The notes below the pieces were generated by a model that was not told the DNA's origin, ran no database searches, and saw only the letters and a list, made by a program, of their open reading frames with translations. The position numbers and the translations under genes were made by a program. From NCBI GenBank assembly GCA_002774635.1, contig PEXU01000047.1, forward strand, positions 1 to 52,591: a DNA stretch of 52,591 bases, in the 5' to 3' direction. The stretch is from Candidatus Kerfeldbacteria bacterium CG08_land_8_20_14_0_20_40_16 (GTDB lineage: Bacteria > Patescibacteriota > Patescibacteriia > UM-FILTER-42-10). Below, in pieces: positions 4,109-28,140 of the stretch (position 1 is its first letter; the number at the start of each line of letters is the position of its first letter).

Positions 4109-5470
4109 ATGAAATATTGTCCCAAATGCAATGCCCTTTTAAACAAAGAAGCCGAATTCTGCAGCGAATGCGGCACCAAAATCGAATCGGAGAACAAAAC
4201 TTCAGAACCCGCTCAAACTCCGATTACTCCAAAACAAAAAAGAAAAAAATCGAGCAACAGATTACTTTGGGTTATCATTATTATTTTTACCCTGGTCATT
4301 ATTGGTGCACTGATTGCTGCTTTTTTTGTTTTTCGGGAATCGGATGAGAAAAATTCCAATTCCGCTATTCCTTCCAATCAAAATTTAAACATGAATGTCA
4401 ATGAGAATACTAACGCCAATGTTAATCTTAATCAGAATGTAAACAGTGATGAGAATATGAATATAAATGATAATGGCAATATTAACATAAATCTAAATGA
4501 GAATAGCAATGAAAATACAAATGCGAATCTCAATGAAAATACTAACCAAGAGCAATTCACTCAAACCGATCCGGTAAATCCACTCCGGCCGCCGATCCCC
4601 GAAACCATTGTAACCGCTTCCTCCACCTTGGAAGACGCCAGCAATACCGGATTCGATTATTCCCCCTCTCAAGTTTTAGATCAGGATTTTTCCACGGCTT
4701 GGACCGAAGGAGTGAACGGTTACGGAGTGGGTGAGTGGATTAAAATGGAATTTCCAGGAACAGCCGAAATCAATACGATCGGAATCGTGCCAGGATACGC
4801 CCGCGATGAAGAAATCTACAACGAGAATGACCGAGTGGCGGATTTGGAACTGGAGTTTTCTGGCGGATCAAAAATAACCAGAACGCTTGCAGACCAATAC
4901 GGCATGCAGTTTATTGAATTTCCAACCGTTGGAACTACTTATATCAAATTAACAATTAAGGGAGTTTACGACGGATCAAAATACCAGGATGCCGCCATTG
5001 CTGAGCTTGATATCTGGTCCGACTATGTAACCAATAAAGATGCCCAAGCAGCCCTGGAATACTATCAAACTAATAAGGAATCGGCCGCTCTAAAGCCTCC
5101 TGTGAAATACATCGAGAAAACCTACATGGCCATCGGCATTATGGGCAGTCCTACTCCAGAAATTCCAGTTAATTTCTATTCTCCCACTGTGGAGCCGATG
5201 GTTGCTGCCGCAGAAATCCCCGCCGCCACTCCTCAAGGAATTACCTTTACCGCTAAGTGGTTCAATGAAGGCAACTTGTTCCATACCCAGGATATTACCA
5301 GTTATTCGCCGGTTGCCGAGATTGCTACCATTACTATTGTTTCCACCGCCCAGATTAGTGATTTAGTTTCTCCACCTGATGTTCTGTGGCCTCTGGGCGA
5401 TTATGATGTCAGATGGTATGAAGACGGCCAGCTTTCCACCACTCAAATTTTTGCCGTGACTCCGCAATAA
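4109..5470 (+). CDS. Membrane-anchored protein with, in order: N-terminal zinc-ribbon, transmembrane helix, (Asn-X)n low-complexity linker, discoidin (F5/8 type C)-like domain, and a C-terminal domain of unknown function
   Basis: CPKC...CSEC ribbon; hydrophobic helix; ~57-residue stretch with N at alternate positions (aatNNN DNA repeats 4376-4550); D..TAW and EW motifs typical of discoidin-like domains. Confidence 0.55.
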   Translation: MKYCPKCNALLNKEAEFCSECGTKIESENKTSEPAQTPITPKQKRKKSSNRLLWVIIIIFTLVIIGALIAAFFVFRESDEKNSNSAIPSNQNLNMNVNENTNANVNLNQNVNSDENMNINDNGNININLNENSNENTNANLNENTNQEQFTQTDPVNPLRPPIPETIVTASSTLEDASNTGFDYSPSQVLDQDFSTAWTEGVNGYGVGEWIKMEFPGTAEINTIGIVPGYARDEEIYNENDRVADLELEFSGGSKITRTLADQYGMQFIEFPTVGTTYIKLTIKGVYDGSKYQDAAIAELDIWSDYVTNKDAQAALEYYQTNKESAALKPPVKYIEKTYMAIGIMGSPTPEIPVNFYSPTVEPMVAAAEIPAATPQGITFTAKWFNEGNLFHTQDITSYSPVAEIATITIVSTAQISDLVSPPDVLWPLGDYDVRWYEDGQLSTTQIFAVTPQ

Positions 5471-11961: not shown

Positions 11962-12716
11962 TGAAAAATATACTCTCAATTCAAAATCTGAAAGTTAAAG
12001 TTGATCAGAAAGAAATCATCAAGGGGGTCTCCTTAAATATTAAATCCGGAGAAATCCATGCTTTAATGGGGCCTAACGGTTCCGGCAAAAGCACCCTGGC
12101 CATGGCTTTGATGGGAAACCCTGATTTTAAAATTGCGTCCGGAAAAGCATTATTCAATCAAAGAAACATTTTGGCAGAACCTCCTGAGAAGCGGGCAAAA
12201 CAGGGGCTTTTTCTTTCCTTTCAGTATCCCCAGGAGATAGCAGGCGTAAGTTTGTTTAATTTTTTAAGAACGGCTTATAACAATGTAAAACGAAAAAAGA
12301 ATGATCCCATTTCTGTGGCGGAATTCAGAAACCTGTTGGAAGAAAAAAGCCGGCTCCTTAAAATTGATCCTTCGTTTTGGGGGAGACCGATTAATGAAGG
12401 TTTTTCCGGAGGCGAAAAAAAGAAAGCCGAAATTTTGCAGCTTTCGATATTGGAACCTAAGCTGGCAATTTTGGATGAAACTGACTCGGGTTTGGATATT
12501 GATGCTCTTAAAACAGTGGCCGAAGGCATCGATCAAATCCGTCGAAAAAATAAAATGAGTATTTTAATTATTACCCATTATCAAAGAATTCTGCGCTATA
12601 TCAAACCTGATTTTGTGCACGTATTGCTGGCGGGCAAAATAGTGGAATCGGGTCGGCAAGCCCTGGCTGGAAAATTGGAACAAAAGGGCTATTTGAATTT
12701 CATCAAGAAAAAATAA
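11961..12716 (+). CDS. sufC: Fe-S cluster assembly ATPase SufC
   Basis: Walker A (GPNGSGKST), ABC signature, Walker B; lies immediately upstream of sufB. Confidence 0.9.
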
Positions 12717-12720
12717 GAGC

Positions 12721-14124
12721 ATGATTACTAAGACCGCCGAAATAGTTTCTGAACAATACAAATACGGCTTTGCCATGCCGGAAAAATACGTCTATAAATC
12801 TAAAAAAGGGCTTGATGAAAAGGTAATCCAAGAAATTTCTTGGAAGAAAAGCGAGCCGGCCTGGATGACCAAATTTCGTCTGCAAAGCTATCAGTACTTT
12901 AAGAAGAGAGCTTTACCAAAATGGGGAGGAGATCTGAAAAAAATCAACTTTGACAGCATTTATTACTACATTAAACCAACGGATCACCCGGCCAAAACCT
13001 GGGAGGAGCTGCCTTCAGAAATTAAGGAAACCTACGACAAAATTGGCGTTCCGGAAGCGGAAAAGAAATTTCTGGCGGGAGTAGGAGCGCAGTACGATTC
13101 AGAAATGGTTTACCATTCTCTAATCGAGAATCTGGAAAAACAGGGAATTATTTTTTTGGATACCGATTCCGCTTTGCAACAATACCCCGATTTAGTAAAG
13201 GAGTATTGGGGTACAATTGTTCCGTCCAATGATAACAAATTTGCTGCTCTCAACTCCGCAGTGTGGTCCGGAGGGTCGTTTATCTACGTGCCAAAAGGGG
13301 TAAGCGTGAAACTGCCTTTGCAGGCTTACTTCAGAATCAATGCGGCGCGGATGGGTCAGTTTGAACGCACTTTAATTATTGCGGAAGAGGGGAGCGACTT
13401 TCACTATTTAGAAGGATGTACTGCTCCGATTTATACCACCGATTCCCTGCACGCAGCCGTGGTAGAAGTGTTTATAAAAAAGGGAGCCCGAGTGCGCTAT
13501 ACCACCATCCAAAACTGGAGCAATAATGTCTATAATCTGGTAACCAAAAGAATGCGAATTGAAGCAGAAGGAATCGGAGAATGGATTGATTGCAATCTTG
13601 GTTCTAAGCTAACCATGAAATACCCCGCCTGCTATTTAATGGGCCCGGGCGCGCGCGGCGAGCTGCTTTCTATGGTTTATGCCGGATTAGGCCAGCACCA
13701 GGATGCCGGCGGCAAAATGATCCACATAGCGCCCCATACTTCTAGCAGAATAACTTCTAAGTCAATCAGCCAGAACGGGGGAAGAACATCTTATCGCGGG
13801 CTGATTCAAATAAATTCCAAGGCAGAAGAATCAAAATCCCGGGTGGTGTGTGATGCCTTAATTCTAGATGAAAAATCCCGGTCCGACACCTATCCTGATA
13901 TGAAAATCTATCAGCAAAATACCCAGGTGGAGCACGAAGCCACAGTCTCTAAAATAGGCGAGGAGCAGCTTTTTTACTTAATGAGCCGGGGTATTGACCA
14001 GATGACCGCCGAGACAATGATTATTAACGGATTCATTGAACCAATTGTAAAAGAACTACCGTTGGAATATGCGGTAGAAATGAACCGGCTGATCCAGCTA
14101 CAGATGGATAGAAGTATTGGTTAA
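12721..14124 (+). CDS. sufB: Fe-S cluster assembly scaffold SufB
   Basis: 467 aa with conserved SufB/SufD C-terminal beta-helix region. Confidence 0.9.
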
Positions 14125-14127
14125 TTT

Positions 14128-14232
14128 CATAATTTACAATTCTCAATTTTCAATGACTACTTTCTTAATTGTTTGAAAATTGAATCATTGAAAATTTATT
14201 GAAAATTGAAAATTGATAATTAAAAATTGCAT
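14128..14232. repeat. Copy of the dispersed AT-rich hairpin repeat (AATTTTCAAT / ATTGAAAATT family)
   Basis: Left arm caattctcaattttcaatg; right arm cattgaaaatttattgaaaattgaaaattgataatt. Confidence 0.7.
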
Positions 14233-14851
14233 TCTAATGACTAAAATAATAATTGATCAACTGAATAGAAAAAAGTCCAAGCGAACTTTGTCTGTTGGTA
14301 AAAGTGAGTCTTTAGTCTATTTATTACTGGGTTTACAGCCGGGCTCCAAAGAAGTCACGATAAATCTAAATGGCAAGGGGGCGACGGCCGAGATACTGGG
14401 ATTGTTTATCGGCCGGCAAGGAACAGGTCAGATCAAAACAATTCAGCGCCACTTGGCTCCTGACACTACCAGCGATTTGTTAATAAAAAGCGTTTTATTT
14501 GATGAGGCAAGCTATAATTACCACGGCATGATCCGGATCGACCGGTCCGCTCCGGGCGCCAATGCTTATCAAAGAAATGACAACTTATTACTAAGTGAAA
14601 AAGCGCTGGTTAACACTAGGCCGGAATTGGAGATTCTGGCCAACGATGTCCGTTGCACCCACGGGGCAACCACCGGCAGAATAAATGAGGCTAACCTGTT
14701 TTATCTTACCAGTAAAGGTATTGCCAAAAAGGAAGCGGAGCGTCTAATCGTGGAAGGGTTTTTGCAAGATGTTCTTGAGAGGATTCCTGACCAGAAAAAA
14801 AGAAATGAGCTAGCAAAACAATTAAAAAGGAAATTAAATCATGTTAATTAA
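14213..14851 (+). CDS. sufD: Short SufD-like Fe-S assembly protein
   Basis: SufBD-family C-terminal region; its position directly after sufB. Confidence 0.7.
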   Translation: MIIKNCILMTKIIIDQLNRKKSKRTLSVGKSESLVYLLLGLQPGSKEVTINLNGKGATAEILGLFIGRQGTGQIKTIQRHLAPDTTSDLLIKSVLFDEASYNYHGMIRIDRSAPGANAYQRNDNLLLSEKALVNTRPELEILANDVRCTHGATTGRINEANLFYLTSKGIAKKEAERLIVEGFLQDVLERIPDQKKRNELAKQLKRKLNHVN

Positions 14852-15143
14852 AATAGCCAAAACAAACGAAATATCAGCTGGAGCAATGAAACGGTTTACT
14901 GTAAGGGGCAAAAAAATCATCATTGTAAATCTGGAGGAAAAATTTTATGCCCTAGATGATACTTGTTCGCATAACCAATGCTCTTTGAGCAAAGGAGAAT
15001 TAGAAGGCGGGATAATTATTTGTCCTTGCCACGGAGCAAGGTTTGATGTTTCGACCGGCAAAGTGCTGGCGCTTCCGGCGGTGAAAGACCTCAAAATTTA
15101 TCCGGTTCAAATCAAAAAAGATTATTTATATGTAGAAATTTAA
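14841..15143 (+). CDS. Rieske [2Fe-2S] domain protein
   Basis: CSH...CPCH ligand boxes. Confidence 0.8.
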   Translation: MLIKIAKTNEISAGAMKRFTVRGKKIIIVNLEEKFYALDDTCSHNQCSLSKGELEGGIIICPCHGARFDVSTGKVLALPAVKDLKIYPVQIKKDYLYVEI

Positions 15144-15144
15144 T

Positions 15145-16368
15145 ATGATTGATGCCGCTAAAATCAAAAAAGATTTTCCGCTTCTAAATCAGAAAATGAA
15201 CGGCCAGCCGCTAGTCTATTTAGACAGTGCTGCTACTTCTCAAAAACCTCAAGCAGTAATTGATGCTATTAAGGATTTTTATGAGCGCCATAACGCCAAT
15301 ATTCATCGGGGGATCTACCGGTTAAGCGAGGAGGCCACCGAGCTTTATGAAGGTGCCCGGGAAAAAGTGCAAAAATTCATTAGAGCCAAAGAAACAAAAG
15401 AAATCATTTTTACCCGTGGTACTACTGAATCAATTAACTTAGTGGCTTATAGTTGGGGCAGACAAAATATAGAAAAGGGGGATGAAATTATTGTTACGGA
15501 AATGGAGCATCATTCTAATCTGATCCCCTGGCAGTTATTGGCTAAAGAAAAAGAAGCGGTTCTGAAATTTATTCCGATAGATGATGAAGGTCGTTTGAAG
15601 ATTACTAAGCTGGACAGTTTGTTGAATAAGAAAACAAGGTTATTAGCAATAACGCATGTTTCTAATGTTTTGGGAGTGGTTAATCCTTTGAAAGAAATCA
15701 TCACCAAGGCGCATAGTAATGGAACGCGGGTGCTGGTAGATGGTGCCCAGGCCGTTCCCCATCTGTCCGTGGATGTATCAGAGCTAGATTGTGATTTTTA
15801 CGCTTTTTCAGGCCATAAAATGCTGGGACCGACCGGCATCGGAGTGCTCCACGGAAAAAGGGAGTTATTAGAAGCGATGCCTCCCTTTATGGGCGGGGGT
15901 GAAATGATTAAGGAAGTTACCAAAGAAGGCGCTACTTGGAACGAATTGCCGACCAAGTTTGAAGCGGGCACTATGCCGATTGCCCAAGTGGTCAGTTTAG
16001 GAACGGCCATTGATTATTTGAATGGCATCGGAATGGAAAATATCTGGCAGCATGAACAAATGCTCATTGCCTATGCTTTAGAAAAGGTTACGGCCATACC
16101 TGGAGTTAAAATCTATGGTCCGTTGAAACCGAAAGACAAAGGCGGAGTGCTGTCCTTTAATATCGGCGAAATCCATCCGCATGACATTGCTTCTATTTTT
16201 GATGAAGAAGGAATTGCGATCCGGGCCGGTCACCACTGCGCCCAGGTATTGCACCGTCGTTTAGGGATTCCCGCTACCGTCCGGGCCAGTTTTTACCTTT
16301 ATACCGATCAGTCGGATATTGATAAACTGATAGGAGCAATTAAGAAAGCTAAACAACTTTTGCTATGA
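15145..16368 (+). CDS. sufS: Cysteine desulfurase SufS (PLP-dependent)
   Basis: PLP-lysine region SGHKMLGPTGIGVL; active-site cysteine RAGHHCAQ. Confidence 0.9.
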   Translation: MIDAAKIKKDFPLLNQKMNGQPLVYLDSAATSQKPQAVIDAIKDFYERHNANIHRGIYRLSEEATELYEGAREKVQKFIRAKETKEIIFTRGTTESINLVAYSWGRQNIEKGDEIIVTEMEHHSNLIPWQLLAKEKEAVLKFIPIDDEGRLKITKLDSLLNKKTRLLAITHVSNVLGVVNPLKEIITKAHSNGTRVLVDGAQAVPHLSVDVSELDCDFYAFSGHKMLGPTGIGVLHGKRELLEAMPPFMGGGEMIKEVTKEGATWNELPTKFEAGTMPIAQVVSLGTAIDYLNGIGMENIWQHEQMLIAYALEKVTAIPGVKIYGPLKPKDKGGVLSFNIGEIHPHDIASIFDEEGIAIRAGHHCAQVLHRRLGIPATVRASFYLYTDQSDIDKLIGAIKKAKQLLL

Positions 16369-16757
16369 ACACCTCGGATATTTATCGGGAAGAAATTATT
16401 GACCATTCCAAACATCCGCGCAATTTCGGTAAAATTGCTAAGCCGGATGTACGCTATAAAGAAAAAAACCCGCTTTGCGGTGATGAAATAGAACTTTTCG
16501 TAAAATTGGATAGTCATAAAAAAGTTAAAGCAGTCGCTTTTAACGGAGCCGGTTGCGTAATCAGCAGGGCCTCTGCTTCTTTATTCACCGAGGCGATAAA
16601 AGGAAAATCTGTGAGGGAATTAGAACAACTTTCTGCTAAGGATGCCTTGGAGTGCCTGGGTTTATCAGAGCTTACTCCGACCCGCCAAAAATGCGCTCTG
16701 CTGGTTCTAGAAACTCTCAAGCGCGGCTTGAAGAAATATCAACAAAAAACCAAATAG
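16365..16757 (+). CDS. sufU: SufU/IscU-like sulfur-transfer/scaffold protein
   Basis: NifU-N-like fold with conserved Cys (LCGDE, GAGC). Confidence 0.8.
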   Translation: MNTSDIYREEIIDHSKHPRNFGKIAKPDVRYKEKNPLCGDEIELFVKLDSHKKVKAVAFNGAGCVISRASASLFTEAIKGKSVRELEQLSAKDALECLGLSELTPTRQKCALLVLETLKRGLKKYQQKTK

Positions 16758-16787
16758 GAAGAATCTCTAACAATTAAACTAAATACT

Positions 16788-17369
16788 ATGAAATACGAAT
16801 TACCTAAACTTAATTATGCTTATGATGCCTTAGAGCCTTATCTTGACGCTCAAACAATGGAAATTCACCATTCCAAACATCATCAAGCCTATACTGATAA
16901 TTTCAACAAAGCTTTGGCGGAGCATCCTGACCTGGCGGAAATGCCGGTGGAGGAGCTTTTAGCTAAAGTGAATGAATTATCGATTAAAGATAGAGATAAA
17001 AACGCTCTGCGTAACCACGGCGGAGGTTATTATAATCATAAACTGTTCTGGGAAATTATGGATCCCGCTAACAAAAAGGACGAATCTTTAATCAAGGACA
17101 TTGAAACAGAGTTTGGCTCCGTTGATTCCTTTAAGGAACAGTTTTCCGAAACGGCTAAAACTCTACTAGGCAGCGGCTGGGCCTGGCTAGCACGGGATAA
17201 AGAAGGCAAGCTCCATGTTTACGGTCTGCCTAATCAGGATTCCCCCTTCCAAAAAGGGCATACCCCGATAATCTGCCTGGATGTTTGGGAGCATGCTTAT
17301 TATCTTAAATATCAAAACCGCCGACCGGAATACATTGAAAACTGGTGGAATGTCTTAAAATTAATTTAG
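16788..17369 (+). CDS. sodA: Fe/Mn superoxide dismutase
   Basis: Signature motifs LPxLxYxxxALEP, HHxKHH and DVWEHAYY. Confidence 0.9.
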   Translation: MKYELPKLNYAYDALEPYLDAQTMEIHHSKHHQAYTDNFNKALAEHPDLAEMPVEELLAKVNELSIKDRDKNALRNHGGGYYNHKLFWEIMDPANKKDESLIKDIETEFGSVDSFKEQFSETAKTLLGSGWAWLARDKEGKLHVYGLPNQDSPFQKGHTPIICLDVWEHAYYLKYQNRRPEYIENWWNVLKLI

Positions 17370-17406
17370 AAAGGGGATACTAATAAGTGAGGGTCTGTCT
17401 ATTACA

Positions 17407-17437
17407 GTAGGCGAGCTCGCGTCGCGGGATCGCCTAC
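17407..17437. repeat. Palindromic element GTAGGCGAgctcgcgtcgcgggaTCGCCTAC (GTAGGCGA family), acting as terminator after sodA
   Basis: Inverted repeat followed by tttt. Related copies at 18923-18958 and 22159-22186. Confidence 0.6.
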
Positions 17438-17531
17438 TTTTGTATTGACCAATCATTTCTTTATTGATAAAATAAAGGACTTTAAGAAGTTTTTTTGAAC
17501 ATTCACAAACCTTAATAGAGGAGGGCTTGAA

Positions 17532-18848
17532 ATGCCGCTCAAAATAATTGTTGGTTGTCAAAAAGGCGATGAAGGTAAAGGTAAGCTTGTTGATCGAGAA
17601 CTTACATTAGGTCATTTTACCTGGAACGTGCGTTTTCAAGGTGGGCGCAATGCCGGCCATACCGTGCAAGTCGGAGATCAACAGATTATCCTGCATCTGA
17701 TTCCTTCGGGAGTGCATCACAAGAATGTCCAATTGGGACTAGGCCCGGGTGTCATTTTTGACCCACAGGGGTTCTTTGAGGAAGTAGATGAACTCAAATC
17801 TTTTGGGATTGAAGTTGAAGGGCGTCTCTGGGTTTCCCCGGCTGCCAAGCTGGTAATGCCCTGGGATAAGGTTCTGGACGGAGCAATCGACCAAGTTCGG
17901 GCTGAAGCTCAAGGTAAAACGGTTCAGGCTGGCGGTGGAGTAGGAACCACTAATCGCGGGATCGGTCCGGCTTATGCCAATGCCATTGCCCGGGACGGTC
18001 TGACCGTTGCCCATCTGCTGAATCCGGAAATTCTCCGCCAACGGCTGGGAACAGTGGTGCCGGTCATCAATCGGATACTCAATGCTTTCGGCTGTCCGGA
18101 AACTAGCGTATAGGAAGTATTTGATCTGTACGCGCCGCTCGGAGAATGCTTACGGAAATTTACTAAGCCTCTTTCTCAAGGATTAGTACAATCACTTGAG
18201 AAAGATCAGTGGATTTTAGTGGAAGGTGGTCAGGGTGCTTTCCTAAGTGTTGACTGCGGGGTCAGTTATCCCTGTTGCACTTCTTCCATTACCACCTCTA
18301 ATGCCGTTTTTGCCGGGTTAGGATTGCCGCTGGTTCCCGAGTGGATCGGTCCGATCGTAGGCGTGGTCAAAGCTTACCAAACTGCCGTCGGTAATCATCC
18401 CATGCCCACTTTGATTGGTGGAGAAGTGGAAGAGAGAATCCGCCAGCGCGGAAAGGAATTCGGTGCTACCACCGGTCGTCCTAGGCACTGTTGCTGGATT
18501 AATGGCTTGGAATTGGTAAGGGGGGTCTGGATTAACGGATGCACGGAAATCGTCATTACTAAGCTGGATGTTCTGGACGAAGAACCAGCAATTCCGATTG
18601 CGCGGGCGCTACGCTACAATAACTATGAGATTCATGAACTGCCTTCGACTTTGGAGGAATACCTAAGATGTGAGCCGGTTTATGATCAAGCTATGTCTGG
18701 TTGGCAAAAAGATACCAGTGGGGTTAGTAAATTCTCTAACCTTCCCGAAGAAGCCTGGAACTATCTCAAGCAACTGGAAATCATTGCCGGCGTGCCGATC
18801 ACCGGCGTTTCTAACGGTCCTCAAAGGGATCAGTTCTGCGTCGCGTGA
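17532..18848 (+). pseudogene. purA: Adenylosuccinate synthetase purA interrupted by a single in-frame TAG at 18111-18113. Both halves and the intervening segment are in one frame and PurA-like throughout.
   Basis: N-terminal half has the GDEGKGK P-loop and GGRNAGHT; after the TAG the same frame reads EVFDLYAPLGE...LVEGGQGAFLSVDCGV...GTTGRPRHCCW...ITKLDVLD. TAG is used as the stop of three other genes in the window. Confidence 0.75.
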
Positions 18849-18864
18849 TGCAGAACACCTCCAG

Positions 18865-18895
18865 GGGAAGAATTATTCATGGTTCTTCCCCTATT
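18865..18895 (+). terminator. Rho-independent terminator after purA
   Basis: ggggaagaattattcatggttcttcccc + tatttt. Confidence 0.6.
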
Positions 18896-18922
18896 TTATT
18901 TGACGAGGATTAATAATTTATG

Positions 18923-18958
18923 ATCAGTAGGCGAATTTGGCCAAATTCGCCTACTGAT
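18923..18958. repeat. Perfect 36-bp palindrome ATCAGTAGGCGAATTTGGCCAAATTCGCCTACTGAT (GTAGGCGAATTT family)
   Basis: Seen directly in the sequence. Confidence 0.75.
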
Positions 18959-19009
18959 AGGAACGATGTCCCACGTACCAAAGTAGGGTATTTGTTCAGT
19001 GGAACGAGT

Positions 19010-19100
19010 ACCCTTTTTAAATTTCCAATTTCCAATTCTCAATTTTCAAATAAGTTCCAAATTCCAATGTTCCAAACATATTTATAATTTGGAATTTTAA
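19010..19100. repeat. Copy of the AT-rich AATTTCCAAT/AATTTTCAAT repeat family
   Basis: atttccaatttccaattctcaattttcaaat ... ttataatttggaatttt. Confidence 0.6.
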
Positions 19101-19159
19101 TAAAAAAAGGGTATAAGCACAAAGTGCTCTACCCTTGTAAATTCCTCCTTTCGAATGAA

Positions 19160-20065
19160 CTATCCCGTCCTTTGATAAACAGGTTCACGTTTCTTCTTAA
19201 AGGCAGTGAGCCCTTCCGCATAGTCCGGATGTGGTGCGAGTTCTTGCAGGTAAACCGTTTCGGAAAATTCCAGAGCTTCGGTAAGGGTTTTAGCATTCTG
19301 GGCACAGTGGGTTAGCACGCTGGTCGCCTGATTCAGGACAAAGGAGCTCAACTTAGCGGTATGCTGCTGTACATCGGCAAGCGCTTGGGCGACGGTAGTT
19401 TCGTCAATGTGCAGGACTTCTCCAAAGAGACTGGAAATTTTAGGTAGTTCCGCAACTGATCTGAAATCCAGTTGCTCAATGAGATTTTCCAGCGTGCCGG
19501 TAAAAGTCTCGTCAATCAGCCCCATAACGCGCATATCCTCCAGTTGCCAGGGTTCCTCTCCCTTCAGAATTTTACCTGTCAGCAGAAACCGGATTGTGCT
19601 TGTGATGTCCTTTGATAGGCGGGGGAAAACTGCCAAACCGAACGGCGGATAGCAAGCCAGCTTAATCTCCGGAACTCCGAAATACAGCGTTTTGGGATTC
19701 AAGGCGATTACCTTCCGGCAGGCCCGGACCAGTTCCGCTCCTCCGCCTAGACACTTGCCGGAAACAATAGCGACGGTAGGAAGGGGAAATTCAGCAACGG
19801 TCCGGCAGAGATTGTTGAAAACAGGAAGCATTTTTCCCACCTTCTCCGGAAAATGTTCGCCAATATCCGCTCCGGCGCAAAAATACTCTCCTTCACTGGC
19901 GAGCACCAATAGGTCGAATTCCTTGATCGGGAATTCCATCAGCAGAAAGTGGGATAGTTCTTCGCACATCGCCTGGTTCAAAATGTTTAGCGGCGGTCGC
20001 TTAAGCAGTAAGACCGCATTTCGACCATATGGTTTGAGTTCAGTAAATTGCAAATTCATCCTCAT
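19160..20065 (-). CDS. Enoyl-CoA hydratase/isomerase (crotonase) family protein
   Basis: Crotonase-fold motifs (FCAGADIGE, GGGAELVRACRKVIA); GC-richer than surrounding genes. Confidence 0.65.
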   Translation of the reverse strand: MRMNLQFTELKPYGRNAVLLLKRPPLNILNQAMCEELSHFLLMEFPIKEFDLLVLASEGEYFCAGADIGEHFPEKVGKMLPVFNNLCRTVAEFPLPTVAIVSGKCLGGGAELVRACRKVIALNPKTLYFGVPEIKLACYPPFGLAVFPRLSKDITSTIRFLLTGKILKGEEPWQLEDMRVMGLIDETFTGTLENLIEQLDFRSVAELPKISSLFGEVLHIDETTVAQALADVQQHTAKLSSFVLNQATSVLTHCAQNAKTLTEALEFSETVYLQELAPHPDYAEGLTAFKKKREPVYQRTG

Positions 20066-20118
20066 ACTCCTTAATAAGTTAATAGGACAAAAATTTCGGT
20101 TGTCAGAACGGGGAAGGG

Positions 20119-21255
20119 CTACGATTCTTGAGGTTTTCCCAGCACCGCCTCAAACAGCTCTTCATTCATGGGATGACCTTCTGCCAGCAACTGTCGGTAC
20201 TTAATGAAATCAATGACATTCGAGCCGGTGATTTTCTTGGTGTTGAAGGCAGTGAATCCCAGAGAACCTTCGCCCTGCATGTTTGCTGCTAGCCAGTGCC
20301 GGTTGGGAAGTTTATTCTGGTCCCACCCGGATTTTTTCTTCTGCCGGATACCGTCAATAGATTTCATCAGACAGCCCGAGAACAGGTTGATAAAGGTCCA
20401 GACGATGCGGTTGACTGCGGTATCGAGCTGAGCGGAATCATATACCACTTTTTCCATCAGACCTTTGGCATGCTGGATTTCGTTGTGTCCTGAGAGGCGT
20501 TCGCCGAAGACAATTCTGCCGTTCTCTATCCATTGGTCGGTGATGACCAAGGGGTTGGTGATGAATTTTCCTTCCAGCTTGAGTACTGGTACTGCCTCGG
20601 TGATTAATCCCAGCCGCAACATCTTGTAGGCAGACCACATTTCGCAGGAAACGCAGCTCCACATTGCTTGCTCAAGGGGTAACAACCAAGGCAGAAAGTC
20701 AGTAGAACCGCCGTCTGGTGCGCTGCCATGACGAGGACCGGCTTGTCCGAATATAGCAGTGTCAGCGGCAATGGTCAGATCGCATGCCATGCCAATTTCC
20801 TGACCGCCAGCTACGCGCATGCCGTTGACTCGGTTGATGACGGGCTTTTTGCAGTTTAGAATGGCATCCACCATCGCGATGAAAAGGTCCATGTACTGAC
20901 CGTATTCTTCCGGCCGGCCGGAGTAATACTCGGCGTATTCCTTGGTGTTGCCGCCGGTGCAGAAAGCCTTGCTGCCCATGGCAGTGAAAACCACTGCTAC
21001 CACACTGCGGTCCATTGAGGCGCGGTAGAACCCGGCGATTACTCCTTTCACCATTTTCGTGGTGTAGGAATTAAGTTGCTCCGGGTTGTTCAGAATAATC
21101 CAGGCGGTGCAAAGGTCTGGAACTACCAGTCCTTTGTCGTCCATTATCGGGCGTAGTTCGTACATTACACCCGGTGCTTGATCGCTGAATAGCGATTCGT
21201 CAAAGAGATTATGGTCTTTCAACTCATGATCTCGTGGTACCCAGTCTAGTGACAT
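20119..21255 (-). CDS. Long-form crotonase-superfamily enzyme (378 aa; MenB-like or ring-hydrolase BamA/Oah-like; subfamily not resolved)
   Basis: FCTGGN...GQAGPRHGSAPDGGSTDFLP crotonase core with N- and C-terminal extensions. Confidence 0.5.
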   Translation of the reverse strand: MSLDWVPRDHELKDHNLFDESLFSDQAPGVMYELRPIMDDKGLVVPDLCTAWIILNNPEQLNSYTTKMVKGVIAGFYRASMDRSVVAVVFTAMGSKAFCTGGNTKEYAEYYSGRPEEYGQYMDLFIAMVDAILNCKKPVINRVNGMRVAGGQEIGMACDLTIAADTAIFGQAGPRHGSAPDGGSTDFLPWLLPLEQAMWSCVSCEMWSAYKMLRLGLITEAVPVLKLEGKFITNPLVITDQWIENGRIVFGERLSGHNEIQHAKGLMEKVVYDSAQLDTAVNRIVWTFINLFSGCLMKSIDGIRQKKKSGWDQNKLPNRHWLAANMQGEGSLGFTAFNTKKITGSNVIDFIKYRQLLAEGHPMNEELFEAVLGKPQES

Positions 21256-21455
21256 GTTTTACTCCCTTCTGTTTTTACTAACTGATTGGTGATTTTTTGA
21301 TTGTATTTGGTTGTAAAAGTTCAAATTTGTATTTAATAATACAAGTTTTATATCTTAGCATAAGGAAAAGGGGAATTCAAATCTTGACTTTGTTTCTGGT
21401 TATATGATAGTGTGAAATTACAGATAAATGGCGTTCTCGGACGTCTATTTTTTGT

Positions 21456-21500
21456 TTAATTCTCAATTATCAATTCTCAATTTACAATCAATTTTCAATG
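21456..21500. repeat. Left arm of the AT-rich hairpin repeat; it contributes the ATG of the four-helix-bundle gene
   Basis: aattctcaattatcaattctcaatttacaatcaattttcaATG. Confidence 0.65.
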
Positions 21501-21863
21501 AAACAATTTCCAAACAGGTATGATTTAGAAGATAGAACAGCTAATTTTGGCGCTGATATCATATTATTTTGTAAAAGAATTGTACAGGACGAAATCGCCA
21601 AACCCATTGTAAAACAGCTAATTCGTTCGGCAACAAGCATTGGAGCAAATTATATGGAAGCAAATGCCGCAAGTTCAAGAAAAGATTTTAGAAATAAGAT
21701 ATACATTTGCAAGAAAGAAGCTCAAGAAACAAAACATTGGCTGAGAATGATGTTGGTCTGTTTACCGGATAAGAAAGAAAAGATAAATAAACTACGTGGA
21801 GAATGTCAGGAATTAACGTTAATTTTTCAAAAAATAACCTCGTCATTGAAAATTAAAAATTAA
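21498..21863 (+). CDS. Four-helix-bundle protein (23S-rRNA-intervening-sequence protein family)
   Basis: Characteristic LIRSATSIGANYMEANAASSRKDFRNKIYICKKEAQETKHWL motif; both gene ends lie inside the repeat arms. Confidence 0.7.
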   Translation: MKQFPNRYDLEDRTANFGADIILFCKRIVQDEIAKPIVKQLIRSATSIGANYMEANAASSRKDFRNKIYICKKEAQETKHWLRMMLVCLPDKKEKINKLRGECQELTLIFQKITSSLKIKN

Positions 21864-21925
21864 ACATTCACTGAAAATTGATAATTGGAAATTGAAAATT
21901 TGTTTTTATTGTAAATTTGACAATT
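21845..21925. repeat. Right arm of the AT-rich hairpin repeat; it contributes the stop codon of the four-helix-bundle gene
   Basis: cattgaaaattaaaaattaaacattcactgaaaattgataattggaaattgaaaatt. Confidence 0.65.
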
Positions 21926-22125
21926 TATCCAAAAATAGAATAGGATAGGAATTACAACTAAATAACTAATTTTAGCCATGAAACTGCAATTTAAGTACAA
22001 TCTGATGAATTCCAAAGATACCCAAGGAATCAGGGATGTTGCCGTATTATACGGTAATCTCGCTTGCCCGGGCAGTTTTAGGCTAATTTTAGGCAAAATG
22101 TAATGTAATTTAGTTATTATCCTAG

Positions 22126-22150
22126 TACTGCCCCGGCAAAAGCCGGGGTT
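22126..22150 (+). terminator. Rho-independent terminator
   Basis: ccccggcaaaagccggggttttt. Confidence 0.65.
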
Positions 22151-22158
22151 TTTAAGTA

Positions 22159-22186
22159 GTAGGCGAATTTCGCGAAATTCGCCTAC
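22159..22186. repeat. Palindrome GTAGGCGAATTTCGCGAAATTCGCCTAC (third copy of the GTAGGCGAATTT family)
   Basis: Seen directly in the sequence. Confidence 0.75.
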
Positions 22187-22216
22187 AAAACCGTTCCCAA
22201 ACTGGAGGAAACAACC

Positions 22217-23410
22217 ATGATCAAGAGAACAACCAAAATATTCTACCTTGTCACCGGAATCAGCGAATTTTTCGTGGCTTTTCATTTTGGCACCTACGTG
22301 CTGTTCTTGCTGTCGCACCAGCTGACGCTTTTTGAGGTCAGCCTGGTAAACATGGTTTTTATGACCACCATGTTCTTATTTGAAGTGCCAACCGGTGCTA
22401 TTGCCGATATCTTTGGCCGAAGATTCTCTTATCTTCTGTCTTGCCTGGTCACTGCCGCCGGATTCCTGTTTTACGGATTTTCGAGCACCTTGGCCGGATT
22501 TATGTTAGCGGAAGCGATTCTGGCCTTGGGAGCAACCCTTACTTCCGGAGCGTTAGATGCTTGGTTTGTGGACAGTCTGAAATTCTACGGCTACCAGGGG
22601 TCGTTTCACAATTTCTTTGCCCGCCAGGCAAGGATTCTGAATGGAGCAACCATCTTTGGCGCTTTGGCCGGCGGTTACTTAGGCCGTTTGAATCTCGCTT
22701 ACAATTGGTTTGTAGCTGGATTCGGATTTCTGCTGGTAGCTTGGCTGGCCTCGCGGTTGATGAAGGAGGAATACTTTCAACCGAATGGAAACGGCATAAA
22801 GGGCATTCTGTCTGATTTTCGGGAAGTAGCCGGCAGCTCTTTCCACTATGGTAAGAGCAGTAAGGCATTTGTCTTGCTGGTTCTAATTGGCGTGGGAGTG
22901 AGTATTGCCACTATGGCCCCTAATATGCAGTGGCAGCCGGTTTTCCGGAGGTACTTTAATGATCCGGCGCTCTTTGGCTGGCTTTGGGCGGCCATGTCCG
23001 TGGCGGTAATAATCGGAAACACCCTAGTTCCTTGGCTGGCTAAGAAATTACCAGGCCAAAAATGGGTCTTTGCTTTAGCACTGCTGGTGATTGGAGTAGG
23101 GGTGATTATCACCCCTTGGGCTTCCGGATTACTGATCACCCTGTTGTTCTTCCTGTTTCATGAAATGGGTCGGGGAGTGCTTAGGCCCAGCCTGGATGCT
23201 TATTTAAACAGGATTATTCCTTCTAATTGGCGGGCCACCCTCCTCTCAATTTATTCTATGACCACCACCGGCGGAGCGGCCCTGGGACTACTGATAAGCG
23301 GTTATTTAGCAGAGCGCTACTCGATTCCGCTAACCTGGTCTCTGGCCGGGGGTTTGTTGCTGCTACTTATCCCCATCTCCTTGAAGCTCAAGGAAGAAGG
23401 AAAAAATTAA
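22217..23410 (+). CDS. MFS-type transporter (12 predicted transmembrane helices)
   Basis: Hydrophobicity pattern and a GRRF-type loop motif (ADIFGRRFSY). Confidence 0.7.
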   Translation: MIKRTTKIFYLVTGISEFFVAFHFGTYVLFLLSHQLTLFEVSLVNMVFMTTMFLFEVPTGAIADIFGRRFSYLLSCLVTAAGFLFYGFSSTLAGFMLAEAILALGATLTSGALDAWFVDSLKFYGYQGSFHNFFARQARILNGATIFGALAGGYLGRLNLAYNWFVAGFGFLLVAWLASRLMKEEYFQPNGNGIKGILSDFREVAGSSFHYGKSSKAFVLLVLIGVGVSIATMAPNMQWQPVFRRYFNDPALFGWLWAAMSVAVIIGNTLVPWLAKKLPGQKWVFALALLVIGVGVIITPWASGLLITLLFFLFHEMGRGVLRPSLDAYLNRIIPSNWRATLLSIYSMTTTGGAALGLLISGYLAERYSIPLTWSLAGGLLLLLIPISLKLKEEGKN

Positions 23411-23411
23411 A

Positions 23412-23448
23412 AGGTCCTTCCTAACACCAAGAAGGACCTTTTTTATCA
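23412..23448 (+). terminator. Rho-independent terminator
   Basis: aaaaggtccttcctaacaccaagaaggaccttttttat. Confidence 0.7.
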
Positions 23449-23645
23449 CTTGTTTTAGCTAAAATATTCAAAAAATTGATTTACCCTACTTTATCGCTTG
23501 ACAGTGTTTTATCAGAAGAAGTATGATAAAAACAACAAAATAGACTGGCAAACAAACACCAAAATCAATTTAAAAACCTTTAACAATCTCAGGGTTTGTT
23601 TTTTTCTCGCTTTTTTTCACTGAAAATGAGCAAAAGTGGGGAGTA

Positions 23646-23674
23646 TTGACTGACACAAGATTTTGTGATAGAAT
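23646..23674 (+). promoter_or_regulatory. Sigma70-like promoter of the nrdR-nrdJ operon (TTGACT ... extended -10 TGATAGAAT)
   Basis: ttgactgacacaagattttgtgatagaat. Confidence 0.5.
23654..23669. promoter_or_regulatory. NrdR box 1 (ACACAAGATTTTGTGA), overlapping the -10 region
   Basis: 13/16 match to the NrdR-box consensus acaCwAtATaTwGtgt. Confidence 0.55.
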
Positions 23675-23685
23675 ACCTTATAGGA

Positions 23686-23701
23686 CCACTAGATATAGTA
23701 T
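23686..23701. promoter_or_regulatory. NrdR box 2 (CCACTAGATATAGTAT), 32 bp downstream of box 1
   Basis: Near-palindrome matching the NrdR-box core ACTAtATATAGT; the tandem spacing of ~3 helical turns is typical. Confidence 0.55.
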
Positions 23702-23781
23702 TTTTAAGAATACAAAAAGCTAATTTGTGGGGAAATAACAAATCCCACCCTTAAAAGGGTCTATTTTTTTGCGAAAAAACT

Positions 23782-27857: not shown

Positions 27858-27887
27858 GCTCTAGTCAAGAAGTAATAGAATTAACTC
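27858..27887 (+). promoter_or_regulatory. Promoter TTGACA-18-TAGAAT driving the cobalamin riboswitch
   Basis: ttgacagctctagtcaagaagtaatagaat. Confidence 0.5.
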
Positions 27888-27899
27888 ACCTTAACAATT

Positions 27900-28140
27900 G
27901 AAAGTTTAATCAGAGAGAAAACAGGGAACACCGGTGGCTCCCTCGTCAGACGAGGGGGGAATCCGGGGCAGACCCGCTACTGTGAGTTCTGAACGAAGTG
28001 AAGAAATCACCTCGAGCTTAGTCGAGAGGTGATTATTCCCCAGCTCAGAATAAGCCAGAGAACTGAATCTCTCTTGAGAAAGTCTTCTTTACTTTCTTCG
28101 CGGATAGAGAAAGGAAGGGTCTAATTTTTGCCTTCCTTGA
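27900..28140 (+). ncRNA. Cobalamin (B12) riboswitch with terminator-type expression platform
   Basis: AGGGAACACCGGTG core, B12-box-like CCGCTACTG, AAGCCAGAGAACTG (cf. AGCCAGGAGACCTGCC), and a terminal hairpin ggaagg...ccttcc + ttttttt. Confidence 0.7.

What the first reader, a model, noticed from the sequence alone, without database searches (positions are those of the whole stretch)
17532..18848. purA interrupted by a single in-frame amber codon
Both ORF-track fragments (17532-18113 and 18219-18848) lie in the same frame. The 105 nt between them also translate into PurA-like sequence (EVFDLYAPLGE...LVEGGQGAF). The only defect is TAG at 18111-18113. TAG terminates at least three other genes here, so codon reassignment is unlikely. 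The alternatives are a recent nonsense mutation (loss of de novo AMP synthesis despite an intact purB-like gene), a sequencing or assembly error, or programmed readthrough.
Basis: seen in the sequence. Interest (0 to 1): 0.55.

Follow-up and report, generated by a model that had tools for sequence, protein, structure and literature searches.

The report
Segregating amber nonsense allele in purA
The stop codon inside this groundwater bacterium's AMP-synthesis gene purA is a real, recent C-to-T mutation that coexists in the wild population with the intact version, so it is ordinary gene loss caught in progress, not a sequencing error or a recoded codon.

Summary
purA (17532-18848, +) is one reading frame, matched end to end by the adenylosuccinate synthetase family, and is broken only by TAG at 18111-18113.

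The window is a 52,591-bp contig of a Candidatus Kerfeldbacteria (CPR/Patescibacteria) genome assembled from a metagenome.

Other public assemblies of the same near-clonal population are 99.8-100% identical.
- 23 fetched contigs, from 22 other sample or assembly ids and several assemblers, carry TAG.
- Five contigs carry CAG (Gln194) and encode an intact 438-aa PurA.
- The nearest orthologue (80% aa identity) also has CAG. More distant orthologues have Ser, Asp, Ala, Asn, Pro or Lys at this position.

So the TAG is a single C-to-T transition segregating in nature. It is not an error, and the stop is not conserved.

TAG also ends 11 of the 48 other ORFs, including iscU with the same TAG-GAA-G context. 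No other gene in the window has an in-frame stop, and the window has no tRNA(CUA).

Truncation at residue 193 removes the residues that bind IMP, aspartate and guanine. The allele is therefore most likely null, or at best a weak hypomorph through near-cognate Gln readthrough.

dN/dS of about 0.1 against the orthologue shows the gene was constrained until recently. Interest is low to moderate.

The parts
17532..18848 (+). purA (adenylosuccinate synthetase) reading frame: 438 sense positions plus the terminal TGA, interrupted at codon 194
   Evidence: PF00709 matches end to end (E = 1e-117). Best solved-structure matches are E. coli and Yersinia PurA (E about 1e-82).
18111..18113 (+). In-frame amber codon TAG. 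Position 18111 is a segregating C/T site: CAG (Gln194) is ancestral, TAG is derived.
   Evidence: T in the window and in 23 fetched loci. C in L001-L005. CAG in the 80% orthologue L035 and TCG in L021.
17532..18110 (+). N-terminal 193-aa product expected from the amber allele. It has the P-loop GDEGKGK, Asn40/His43 and the GTT IMP-phosphate loop. GenBank annotates it as PIS42347.1.
   Evidence: residue mapping from the alignment
18114..18845 (+). C-terminal 244 codons that the amber allele no longer translates. They include Gln234 (E. coli Q224), the TSS motif at 250-252, Arg316/Arg318 (R303/R305) and Lys344/Asp346 (K331/D333). The first canonical in-frame start is GTG at 18219, with no clear Shine-Dalgarno sequence.
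   Evidence: GenBank annotates a 240-aa fragment, PIS42348.1.
17445..17473 (+). Sigma-70-like promoter candidate for purA (TTGACC, 17 nt, TAAAAT, with TG before the second hexamer)
   Evidence: consensus match only
17520..17525 (+). Shine-Dalgarno sequence GGAGGG, 6 nt before the ATG
   Evidence: Read directly from the sequence
17510..17510 (+). Segregating C/T site 22 nt upstream of the purA start codon
18622..18622 (+). Segregating A/G site, Asn364Ser. It is found with both the TAG and the CAG allele.
18863..18892 (+). Terminator-like hairpin (13 pairs) followed by a T-rich tail, 15 nt after the purA stop codon
17406..17438 (.). REP-like palindrome AGTAGGCGA...TCGCCTACT upstream of purA
   Evidence: I10
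18923..18958 (.). Perfect 18+18 nt palindrome of the same family downstream of purA. Many contigs from other assemblies end here.
   Evidence: I3; contig ends
1639..3102 (+). Intact purB-like gene (adenylosuccinate lyase family), the partner step of the IMP-to-AMP branch
   Evidence: The 487-aa product is seen unchanged on 11 contigs.

Best explanation
Codon 194 of purA changed from CAG (Gln) to TAG by one C-to-T transition in a near-clonal natural population of a Candidatus Kerfeldbacteria (CPR) bacterium. Both alleles still segregate, and the amber allele is the one most often assembled.

Translation of the amber allele should stop after residue 193. The product would have the P-loop half of the enzyme but would lack the residues that bind IMP, aspartate and the guanine base. 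The allele is therefore inferred to be a null allele of adenylosuccinate synthetase. At most it is a weak hypomorph, if occasional near-cognate decoding of UAG inserts Gln, which would recreate the wild-type protein.

The mutation is very young. The rest of the gene, its promoter-like site, Shine-Dalgarno sequence and terminator are intact. The gene was under strong purifying selection until recently.

That the organism tolerates the loss is an inference. It would require AMP or adenine from a host or the environment, in line with the host-dependent, biosynthetically limited lifestyle described for CPR bacteria (abstracts listed).

Shown: the codon, the polymorphism, the ancestral state, the normal use of TAG as a stop, and the position of the catalytic residues. 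Inferred: loss of activity, tolerance through salvage, and neutral or near-neutral spread.
For: 1. The variant is real.
- The 193-aa N-terminal fragment is indexed in 36 blocks of the assembly collection, and 22 contigs were read.
- All 23 fetched TAG loci have T at 18111. They come from JGI, ENA MEGAHIT, ENA SPAdes and Logan assemblies.

2. The intact allele exists.
- P0122 and P0125 are 438 aa with Gln194. P0122 is identical to the window's PurA apart from Gln at codon 194, and P0125 also has N364S.
- Four of their five contigs (L001, L003-L005) are 99.8-99.95% identical to the window along their whole length.
- L002 is window-type only to the right of 17085.

3. The ancestral state is a sense codon.
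- The orthologue with 80% aa identity has CAG, and the 68% orthologue has TCG.
- Across the family the position varies (Q, D, S, A, N, P, K).

4. There is no recoding signal.
- purA is the only interrupted frame in the window.
- TAG ends 11 of 48 other ORFs.
- The iscU stop reads TAG GAA G, as the internal purA TAG does. sod follows iscU in the same frame with no intervening stop.
- The window has no tRNA with a CUA anticodon.

5. The gene is a genuine, recently constrained purA.
- PF00709 matches end to end.
- The equivalents of catalytic residues D13, K16, N38, H41, Q224, R303, R305, K331 and D333 are present. They are invariant or nearly invariant in the alignment.
- dN/dS is about 0.10 against the nearest orthologue.

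6. The polymorphism spectrum looks unpurged.
- The 14 variable sites in about 11 kb are 1 nonsense, 9 nonsynonymous, 3 synonymous and 1 intergenic.
- One nonsense site among them is not unexpected.
Against: - The amber allele is the majority allele and appears on several SNP backgrounds. Six of the eight possible haplotypes at 17510/18111/18622 are seen. That is more than expected for a deleterious allele confined to one clone. It could mean the allele is tolerated, rescued or even favoured.
- No second disabling mutation has accumulated in any TAG contig. Only L034 has two extra nonsynonymous changes.
- purB remains intact.
- These points fit extreme youth, but they also fit continued function.
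- The rest of the genome could not be scanned for a suppressor tRNA or for prfA.
- Assemblies from JGI, ENA and Logan may reuse some of the same reads, so the contig counts overstate independence.
- Consensus assembly of mixed strains can fabricate haplotype combinations.
Confidence: 0.8

Rival explanations
1. Sequencing, consensus or assembly error: the organism really has a sense codon at 18111-18113.
For: It is a single-base difference in a metagenome-assembled genome. Intact versions of the gene exist in other assemblies.
Against: TAG recurs in 23 fetched contigs from 22 other sample or assembly ids. These were built with different assemblers (JGI pipeline, MEGAHIT k141, SPAdes, Logan). 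A random error would not recur like this, and no homopolymer or repeat lies at the site.
Confidence: 0.03
2. Functional decoding of the amber codon yields full-length PurA at useful levels. The means could be a dedicated suppressor tRNA, a lineage-specific TAG reassignment, pyrrolysine-type recoding or programmed readthrough.
For: - The frame is otherwise perfect in every TAG contig, and the allele is common.
- Position 194 tolerates many residues in the family, so almost any insertion would give an active enzyme.
- In E. coli, near-cognate tRNAs insert Q, Y, W, E and K at UAG (PMC4333366). Gln would restore the wild-type sequence.
Against: - No orthologue has a stop here.
- No other in-frame TAG occurs in 52.6 kb.
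- TAG is a frequent true terminator, used at 23% of ORF ends.
- The same TAG-GAA-G context ends iscU just before an in-frame sod.
- The window has no tRNA(CUA) and no Rfam recoding element.
- The local hairpins are no more than chance would give. The fold z-score is -2.7, and my estimate is about 0.75 perfect 11-bp inverted repeats by chance per window.
- The sense allele coexists with the stop allele, which is not expected for a fixed recoding site.
Confidence: 0.08
3. Split enzyme: the N-terminal fragment (1-193) and a separately initiated C-terminal fragment assemble into an active two-piece PurA.
For: Gene callers annotate both halves as ORFs, and both hit PF00709.
Against: - The first canonical in-frame start after the stop is GTG at 18219, 35 codons downstream, with no clear Shine-Dalgarno sequence.
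- GenBank's alternative start is a CTG at 18126 (inferred from the length and first residues of P0007).
- Residues 194-229 would be lost.
- None of the homologues aligned is split.
- The break arose from a point mutation of a contiguous gene that still exists intact in the same population.
Confidence: 0.03
4. Adaptive loss or balanced polymorphism: inactivating or down-tuning purA is advantageous for this putative symbiont. The allele has been driven to high frequency and moved between genomic backgrounds by recombination.
For: - The amber allele is in the majority.
- It is seen with both states of the flanking SNPs at 17510 and 18622.
- It is seen on contigs with different left-hand junctions: L026 has the sod of a third lineage, and L010 has nusB.
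- dprA, a DNA-uptake and recombination mediator gene, is in the window.
Against: - The population is nearly clonal, with only 14 variable sites in about 11 kb. Its polymorphisms are mostly nonsynonymous. Drift or hitch-hiking is therefore sufficient.
- Haplotype mixing and hybrid contigs can be assembly artefacts.
- No allele-frequency time series or sample metadata could be obtained.
Confidence: 0.06

Closest known systems
Adenylosuccinate synthetase PurA (Pfam PF00709; NCBIfam NF002223 and TIGR00184; E. coli structures such as 1ADE)
   Same: The match is collinear over the full length. It has the P-loop GDEGKGK, NAGHT, GTT, GGQG, TSS, GATTGRxR and TKLD motifs. A purB-like partner gene lies in the same window.
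   Different: - It is interrupted at codon 194 in this allele.
- The whole Patescibacteria clade scores just below the NCBIfam equivalog cut-offs: 392 against 402 bits, and 338 for a 58% relative.
- The clade has its own substitutions: Lys/Arg in place of the Trp before GDEGKGK, a 9-10-residue insertion after residue 123, LSVDCGxSYPCC in place of LDVDHGTYPYV, and RHCCW in place of RRCGW.
Segregating premature-stop (loss-of-function) alleles and nascent pseudogenes in bacteria undergoing reductive evolution
   Same: A single-base nonsense change in a gene that is otherwise intact and was recently constrained. The ancestral allele still coexists with it. Abstracts listed describe CPR bacteria as having limited, patchy biosynthetic repertoires and a likely symbiotic lifestyle.
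   Different: Here the derived allele is the one most often assembled, across many samples. No secondary degradation is visible yet.
Amber suppression and near-cognate UAG readthrough (E. coli supE-type tRNA-Gln suppressors, from my own knowledge; natural Q/Y/W/E/K misincorporation at UAG, PMC4333366)
   Same: The codon is UAG derived from CAG. The usual near-cognate insertion, Gln, would recreate the wild-type enzyme.
   Different: No suppressor tRNA, stimulatory context or conservation of the stop was found. TAG is a common true terminator in the window.
PurZ (succino-amino-deoxyadenylate synthase of phages with the Z base)
   Same: It belongs to the same superfamily.
   Different: The match is weak: 75 bits against a cut-off of 300. 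The window is a bacterial chromosome segment with suf, RNR, topA, relA/spoT and parAB genes.

Membership tests
Adenylosuccinate synthetase (PurA, PF00709) | Full-length collinear match to the family profile | tested here: met
   PF00709 covers residues 5-435, profile positions 1-415 of 416, E = 1.1e-117. PDB PurA chains match with E down to 3e-82.
Adenylosuccinate synthetase (PurA, PF00709) | Catalytic and ligand-binding residues (E. coli numbering from my own knowledge: D13, K16, N38, H41, T128/T129, Q224, R303, R305, K331, D333) | tested here: met
   Mapped through the alignment to D13, K16, N40, H43, T139/T140, Q234, R316, R318, K344 and D346. All are invariant or nearly invariant in the 14-sequence alignment.
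Adenylosuccinate synthetase (PurA, PF00709) | Score above NCBIfam equivalog cut-off (NF002223 402 bits; TIGR00184 395.55 bits) | tested here: not met
   390-392 bits against NF002223 and 346-348 bits against TIGR00184 for the window and P0122. The relatives P0001 and P0009 are also below. The clade is a divergent PurA lineage. Enzyme specificity was not tested.
Adenylosuccinate synthetase (PurA, PF00709) | Uninterrupted coding sequence | tested here: not met
   TAG at codon 194 in the window. The feature is met by the CAG allele on L001-L005.
Nonsense polymorphism / nascent pseudogene | Sense codon at the homologous position in the closest relatives, differing from the stop by one base | tested here: met
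   CAG in the same-population contigs L001-L005 and in the 80% orthologue L035
Nonsense polymorphism / nascent pseudogene | Variant reproducible in independent data, so not an error | tested here: met
   T at 18111 in 23 fetched loci from 22 other sample or assembly ids and from several assemblers. No read-level check was possible.
Nonsense polymorphism / nascent pseudogene | Truncation removes parts needed for activity, and activity is lost | not testable with these tools
   By alignment, the residues equivalent to Q224, R303/R305 and K331/D333 lie downstream of the stop. Loss of activity itself needs an assay.
Programmed stop-codon readthrough / codon reassignment | Stop codon conserved at the site in orthologues | tested here: not met
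   Orthologues have Q, D, S, A, N, P or K. At the DNA level they have CAG or TCG.
Programmed stop-codon readthrough / codon reassignment | In-frame TAG in other conserved genes, or avoidance of TAG as a terminator | tested here: not met
   No other interrupted frame in 52.6 kb. TAG ends 11 of 48 other ORFs.
Programmed stop-codon readthrough / codon reassignment | Cognate suppressor tRNA (anticodon CUA), pylT/pylS, or loss of RF1 | not testable with these tools
   None among the four tRNAs of the window (Met, Met, Leu-CAA, Tyr-GTA).
Programmed stop-codon readthrough / codon reassignment | Distinctive stimulatory context or downstream RNA structure | tested here: inconclusive
   The 3' context TAG-GAA-G is the same as at the genuine iscU terminator. 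The local fold z-score is -2.7. An 11-bp inverted repeat lies 57 nt downstream, which my estimate puts at about chance level for the window.

The most novel reading that the evidence does not exclude
The amber allele is not a dead end but a tolerated or favoured state. Either low-level near-cognate Gln readthrough, or an undetected suppressor, keeps a trickle of wild-type PurA, making it a down-tuned allele. Or loss of the IMP-to-AMP branch is adaptive for this putative symbiont. In either case the allele has spread by homologous recombination onto several genomic backgrounds of co-occurring Kerfeldbacteria. That would explain why it outnumbers the intact allele across many samples while the frame stays otherwise perfect.
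Probability: 0.12. Interest if true: 0.6.

Novelty: new member of a known kind. Interest (0 to 1): 0.3.

Why it matters
It turns an ambiguous oddity in a single genome into a resolved case. The in-frame stop is a genuine natural polymorphism, and the two "hypothetical protein" entries in GenBank are halves of one purA.

It is a clean example of a biosynthetic gene being lost, or nearly lost, in an uncultivated CPR bacterium while the functional allele still circulates. Read-level time series from the same samples could therefore measure the fate of a loss-of-function allele directly in a natural population with a very small genome.

For annotation, it warns against scoring this genome as able to convert IMP to AMP. 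It also warns against inferring an alternative genetic code from a single interrupted gene.

Tried and rejected
- Exact-pattern scan of JGI metagenome contigs across the site, with N at the variable base: no hits. A protein-guided scan of the same collection returned only more distant orthologues. Allele counts therefore rest on the look-up of encoding contigs.
- The genome-contig scan returned two orthologues, 68% and 58% identical, both uninterrupted. It did not return the window's own genome, so no genome-wide tRNA scan was possible.
- Idea: the C of GTAC is a 5-methylcytosine deamination hot spot, since the mutated C is the last base of a GTAC. GTAC is no more depleted (0.82) than other 4-nt palindromes. 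Dropped.
- Idea: a downstream RNA structure promotes readthrough or reinitiation. The hairpin around the TAG and the 11-bp inverted repeat at 18170-18205 are about what chance gives in this window, and their spacing is unlike that of known readthrough elements (known elements: own knowledge). Dropped.
- A tandem back-up stop and 3'-context comparison for the natural TAG terminators showed nothing distinctive.
- Literature searches for the sample and run accessions, and for CPR plus adenylosuccinate salvage, returned nothing.
- The pyrrolysine and PurZ readings were rejected on orthologue residues and family scores.

Full report
**Observation**

The sequence and its translation show a single frame from ATG 17532 to TGA 18846-18848. 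It has exactly one internal stop, TAG at 18111-18113. The mechanical ORF list splits it into 17532-18113 (193 aa) and 18219-18848 (209 aa, from a GTG), both in the same frame.

With X at the stop, the 438-residue product matches Pfam PF00709 (adenylosuccinate synthetase) in one stretch. The match covers residues 5-435 and profile positions 1-415 of 416, E = 1e-117. It aligns collinearly with the E. coli and Yersinia PurA structure sequences across the stop.

A six-frame scan for long same-frame ORF pairs separated by one stop found no other interrupted gene in the 52.6 kb. The other pairs are neighbouring genes.

**Origin of the window**

The protein search identified both fragments as GenBank entries PIS42347.1 and PIS42348.1. 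Both are annotated "hypothetical protein", from Candidatus Kerfeldbacteria bacterium CG08_land_8_20_14_0..., on a 52,591-bp contig, which is the window itself.

The gene content is that of a bacterial chromosome segment:
- suf Fe-S cluster assembly genes (sufC-like ABC ATPase, two SufB/D-family genes, sufS) with a Rieske gene and iscU, then sod
- nrdR and a class II ribonucleotide reductase, with btuR
- parAB, topA, a relA/spoT-family gene, dprA and pth

GC content is 42%.

**The decisive result: the site is polymorphic in nature**

The 90%-identity protein cluster of the fragments holds three kinds of member:
- the 193-aa N-terminal fragment, on 19 contigs
- four 209-aa C-terminal fragment variants
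- two full-length 438-aa proteins, P0122 and P0125

P0122 is identical to the window's PurA apart from Gln at position 194. P0125 also has N364S.

I fetched the encoding contigs and aligned them to the window. Apart from foreign left ends on L002, L010 and L026 (described below), every contig is 99.8-100% identical to the window. Only 14 positions vary across about 11 kb (12532-23725).

- Position 18111 is T in the window and in 23 fetched loci. These come from 22 other sample or assembly ids and several pipelines: JGI assemblies, ENA MEGAHIT k141 contigs, an ENA SPAdes contig and Logan assemblies of SRA runs.
- The index lists the N-terminal fragment in 36 blocks.
- Position 18111 is C in five contigs, L001-L005.

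A one-off sequencing or assembly error is therefore excluded. A caveat remains: some of these assemblies may reuse the same reads, so the counts are upper bounds on independence. Reads could not be inspected.

**Direction of the change**

At the DNA level the same-population intact allele has CAG. The nearest orthologue (L035, 80% aa identity) has CAG. The 68% orthologue from Candidatus Kerfeldbacteria CG_4_10_14_0.8_um_filter_42_10 (L021) has TCG.

Across 13 homologues the position holds Q, D, S, A, N, P or K. CAG (Gln194) is therefore ancestral and TAG arose by one C-to-T transition. The stop is not conserved, and the position is tolerant of substitution.

**Is TAG a normal stop here?**

Yes.
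- Of the 48 other non-overlapping ORFs of at least 70 aa, 11 end in TAG, 26 in TAA and 11 in TGA.
- The TAG-terminated ORFs include iscU, sod, fur, nrdR, class II RNR, parB, a thioredoxin-reductase-like gene and two enoyl-CoA hydratase genes.
- The iscU terminator reads TAG GAA G, the same 3' context as the purA internal TAG. sod follows in the same frame with no intervening stop, so efficient readthrough of this context would fuse IscU to SOD.
- The window has four tRNAs (two Met-CAT, Leu-CAA, Tyr-GTA) and none with a CUA anticodon. Apart from the four tRNAs, Rfam finds only a cobalamin riboswitch.
- The local RNA fold is modestly stable, with z = -2.7. The 11-bp inverted repeat at 18170-18205 is about what chance gives in a window of this size (my estimate).

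Nothing points to reassignment, pyrrolysine or programmed readthrough. The full genome could not be scanned for a suppressor tRNA or for RF1.

**What the allele does**

The gene looks ready for expression:
- a sigma-70-like promoter candidate at 17445-17473
- GGAGGG 6 nt before the ATG
- a terminator-like hairpin at 18863-18892

I mapped the residues known in E. coli PurA (numbering from my own knowledge) through the alignment.
- The P-loop (D13, K16), N38/H41 (here N40/H43) and the GTT loop lie before the stop.
- Q224 (Q234), the TSS motif, R303/R305 (R316/R318) and the guanine-specificity K331/D333 (K344/D346) lie after it.
- All of these are invariant or nearly invariant in the family alignment.

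A 193-residue product should therefore be inactive. This is an inference.

The first canonical in-frame restart is GTG at 18219, without a clear Shine-Dalgarno sequence, so a functional two-piece enzyme is unlikely.

In E. coli, near-cognate decoding of UAG inserts Q, Y, W, E and K (PMC4333366). Gln would recreate the wild-type protein, so a trace of active enzyme cannot be excluded.

**How recent, and under what selection?**

- dN/dS between the window gene and the 80% orthologue is about 0.10. dS is about 1.6, which is near saturation, and dN is 0.15. The lineage kept purA under purifying selection until very recently.
- No TAG contig carries a second disabling mutation. One, L034, has two extra nonsynonymous changes, V178A and G187V.
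- The 14 segregating sites comprise 1 nonsense, 9 nonsynonymous, 3 synonymous and 1 intergenic. This spectrum is close to unselected mutation, as expected in a young, near-clonal population. One nonsense change among about 14 is unremarkable.
- The purB-like partner gene (1639-3102) is intact here and on 11 contigs.

**Unexplained residue**

The amber allele is the majority allele. Across the sites 17510, 18111 and 18622, six of the eight possible haplotypes occur. That requires recombination, recurrent mutation or assembler mixing of strains.

Several contigs join the purA segment to different left-hand sequences:
- L002 carries the CAG allele. It matches L021 at every informative site checked up to 17072 and is window-type from 17085. 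The two types share only 12 nt at the switch.
- L026 carries TAG and has the sod of a third lineage left of about 17280.
- L010 carries TAG and has a nusB-like ORF left of 17349.
- Four contigs begin exactly at 17910, and two of them end at 20054.

These may be real recombinants; dprA is present in the window. They may also be artefacts. They are the basis for the low-probability reading that the allele is tolerated or favoured and is spreading.

**Comparison with what is known**

The gene is a member of the PurA family by architecture and catalytic residues. However, the whole Patescibacteria clade scores just under the NCBIfam equivalog cut-offs (392 against 402 bits) and carries clade-specific substitutions.

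The interruption belongs to a well-known kind: a premature-stop loss-of-function allele, or nascent pseudogene, in a lineage with reduced metabolism. It fails the tests for programmed recoding that could be run here.

**Verdict**

Its "recent nonsense mutation" alternative is the supported one. "Error" is excluded and "programmed readthrough" has no support.

The case is a tidy, well-documented example of gene loss in progress, but not a new mechanism. Interest is 0.3. Novelty: new member of a known kind.

Noticed in passing
window 17406-17438, 18923-18958, 22159-22186 (similar: 1558-1583); L021 4229-4272, 4869-4902, 6418-6449: A family of REP-like palindromes with core AGTAGGCGA...TCGCCTACT. 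Two copies bracket purA, and palindromes also bracket purA in the 82%-identical sister species. The window's downstream copy matches the L021 palindrome at 4222-4272. Many contigs from other assemblies end at 18934-18952, at the downstream copy.
   Followed up: partly
L002 (ENA ERZ27293348 k141_588912), switch at window 17072-17085, inside sod: This contig matches Kerfeldbacteria CG_4_10_14_0.8_um_filter_42_10 (L021) at every informative site checked up to 17072. From 17085 onward it is 100% window-type, with the CAG allele. The two parents share only 12 nt at the switch, which is too short for a k=141 graph chimera. It may be a real inter-species recombinant.
   Followed up: partly
L010 1-437 (ENA ERZ17912254 NODE_6922) and L026 1-170 (ENA ERZ27293372): TAG-bearing purA segments are joined on the left to a nusB-like ORF (junction at window 17349) or to the sod of a third lineage (junction near 17280). 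These are either structural variants or recombinants, or chimeric contigs.
   Followed up: partly
window 17910 and 20054 (contigs L025, L028, L031, L032; L034 starts at 17903): Four contigs from different assemblies start at exactly 17910, inside purA, and two of them end at exactly 20054. Such shared ends suggest assembly-graph branch points. A 2.1-kb segment may be shared with another co-occurring genome.
   Followed up: no
window 17532-18848 and homologues P0001-P0010: The Patescibacteria PurA clade is divergent. It scores below the NCBIfam equivalog cut-offs. It has Lys/Arg instead of the conserved Trp before GDEGKGK, a 9-10-residue insertion after residue 123, and the motifs SVDCGxSYPCCTSS and GRPRHCCW. 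Substrate specificity is untested. The purB-like gene at 1639-3102 is also below its cut-off.
   Followed up: partly
window 27886-28084 (+): A cobalamin riboswitch (Rfam RF00174, 38 bits). It lies downstream of the class II (B12-dependent) ribonucleotide reductase and btuR genes, and upstream of DUF4430 and DUF6580 genes, which may be a corrinoid uptake module.
   Followed up: no
window 12532-23725 compared with loci L001-L034: The population is nearly clonal across many samples, with 14 variable sites in about 11 kb. Nine of the 13 coding variants are nonsynonymous, which suggests a very recent expansion or weak purifying selection.
   Followed up: partly
window 1639-3102 (purB-like): The identical 487-aa protein is also deposited under a MAG labelled candidate division WWE3 (PIP04291.1, COX53_03300). 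This suggests the same contig was binned into two differently named genomes.
   Followed up: no
window 34-996 (-): An ORF with a weak match to the Mutator-family transposase (PF00872, 25 bits) lies at the left edge of the window.
   Followed up: no
window 18106-18133: The amber codon sits in the 5' arm of an 8-bp hairpin (GCGUAUAG / CUGUACGC). The C-to-T change converts a C-G pair to a U-G pair. This is probably coincidental.
   Followed up: no
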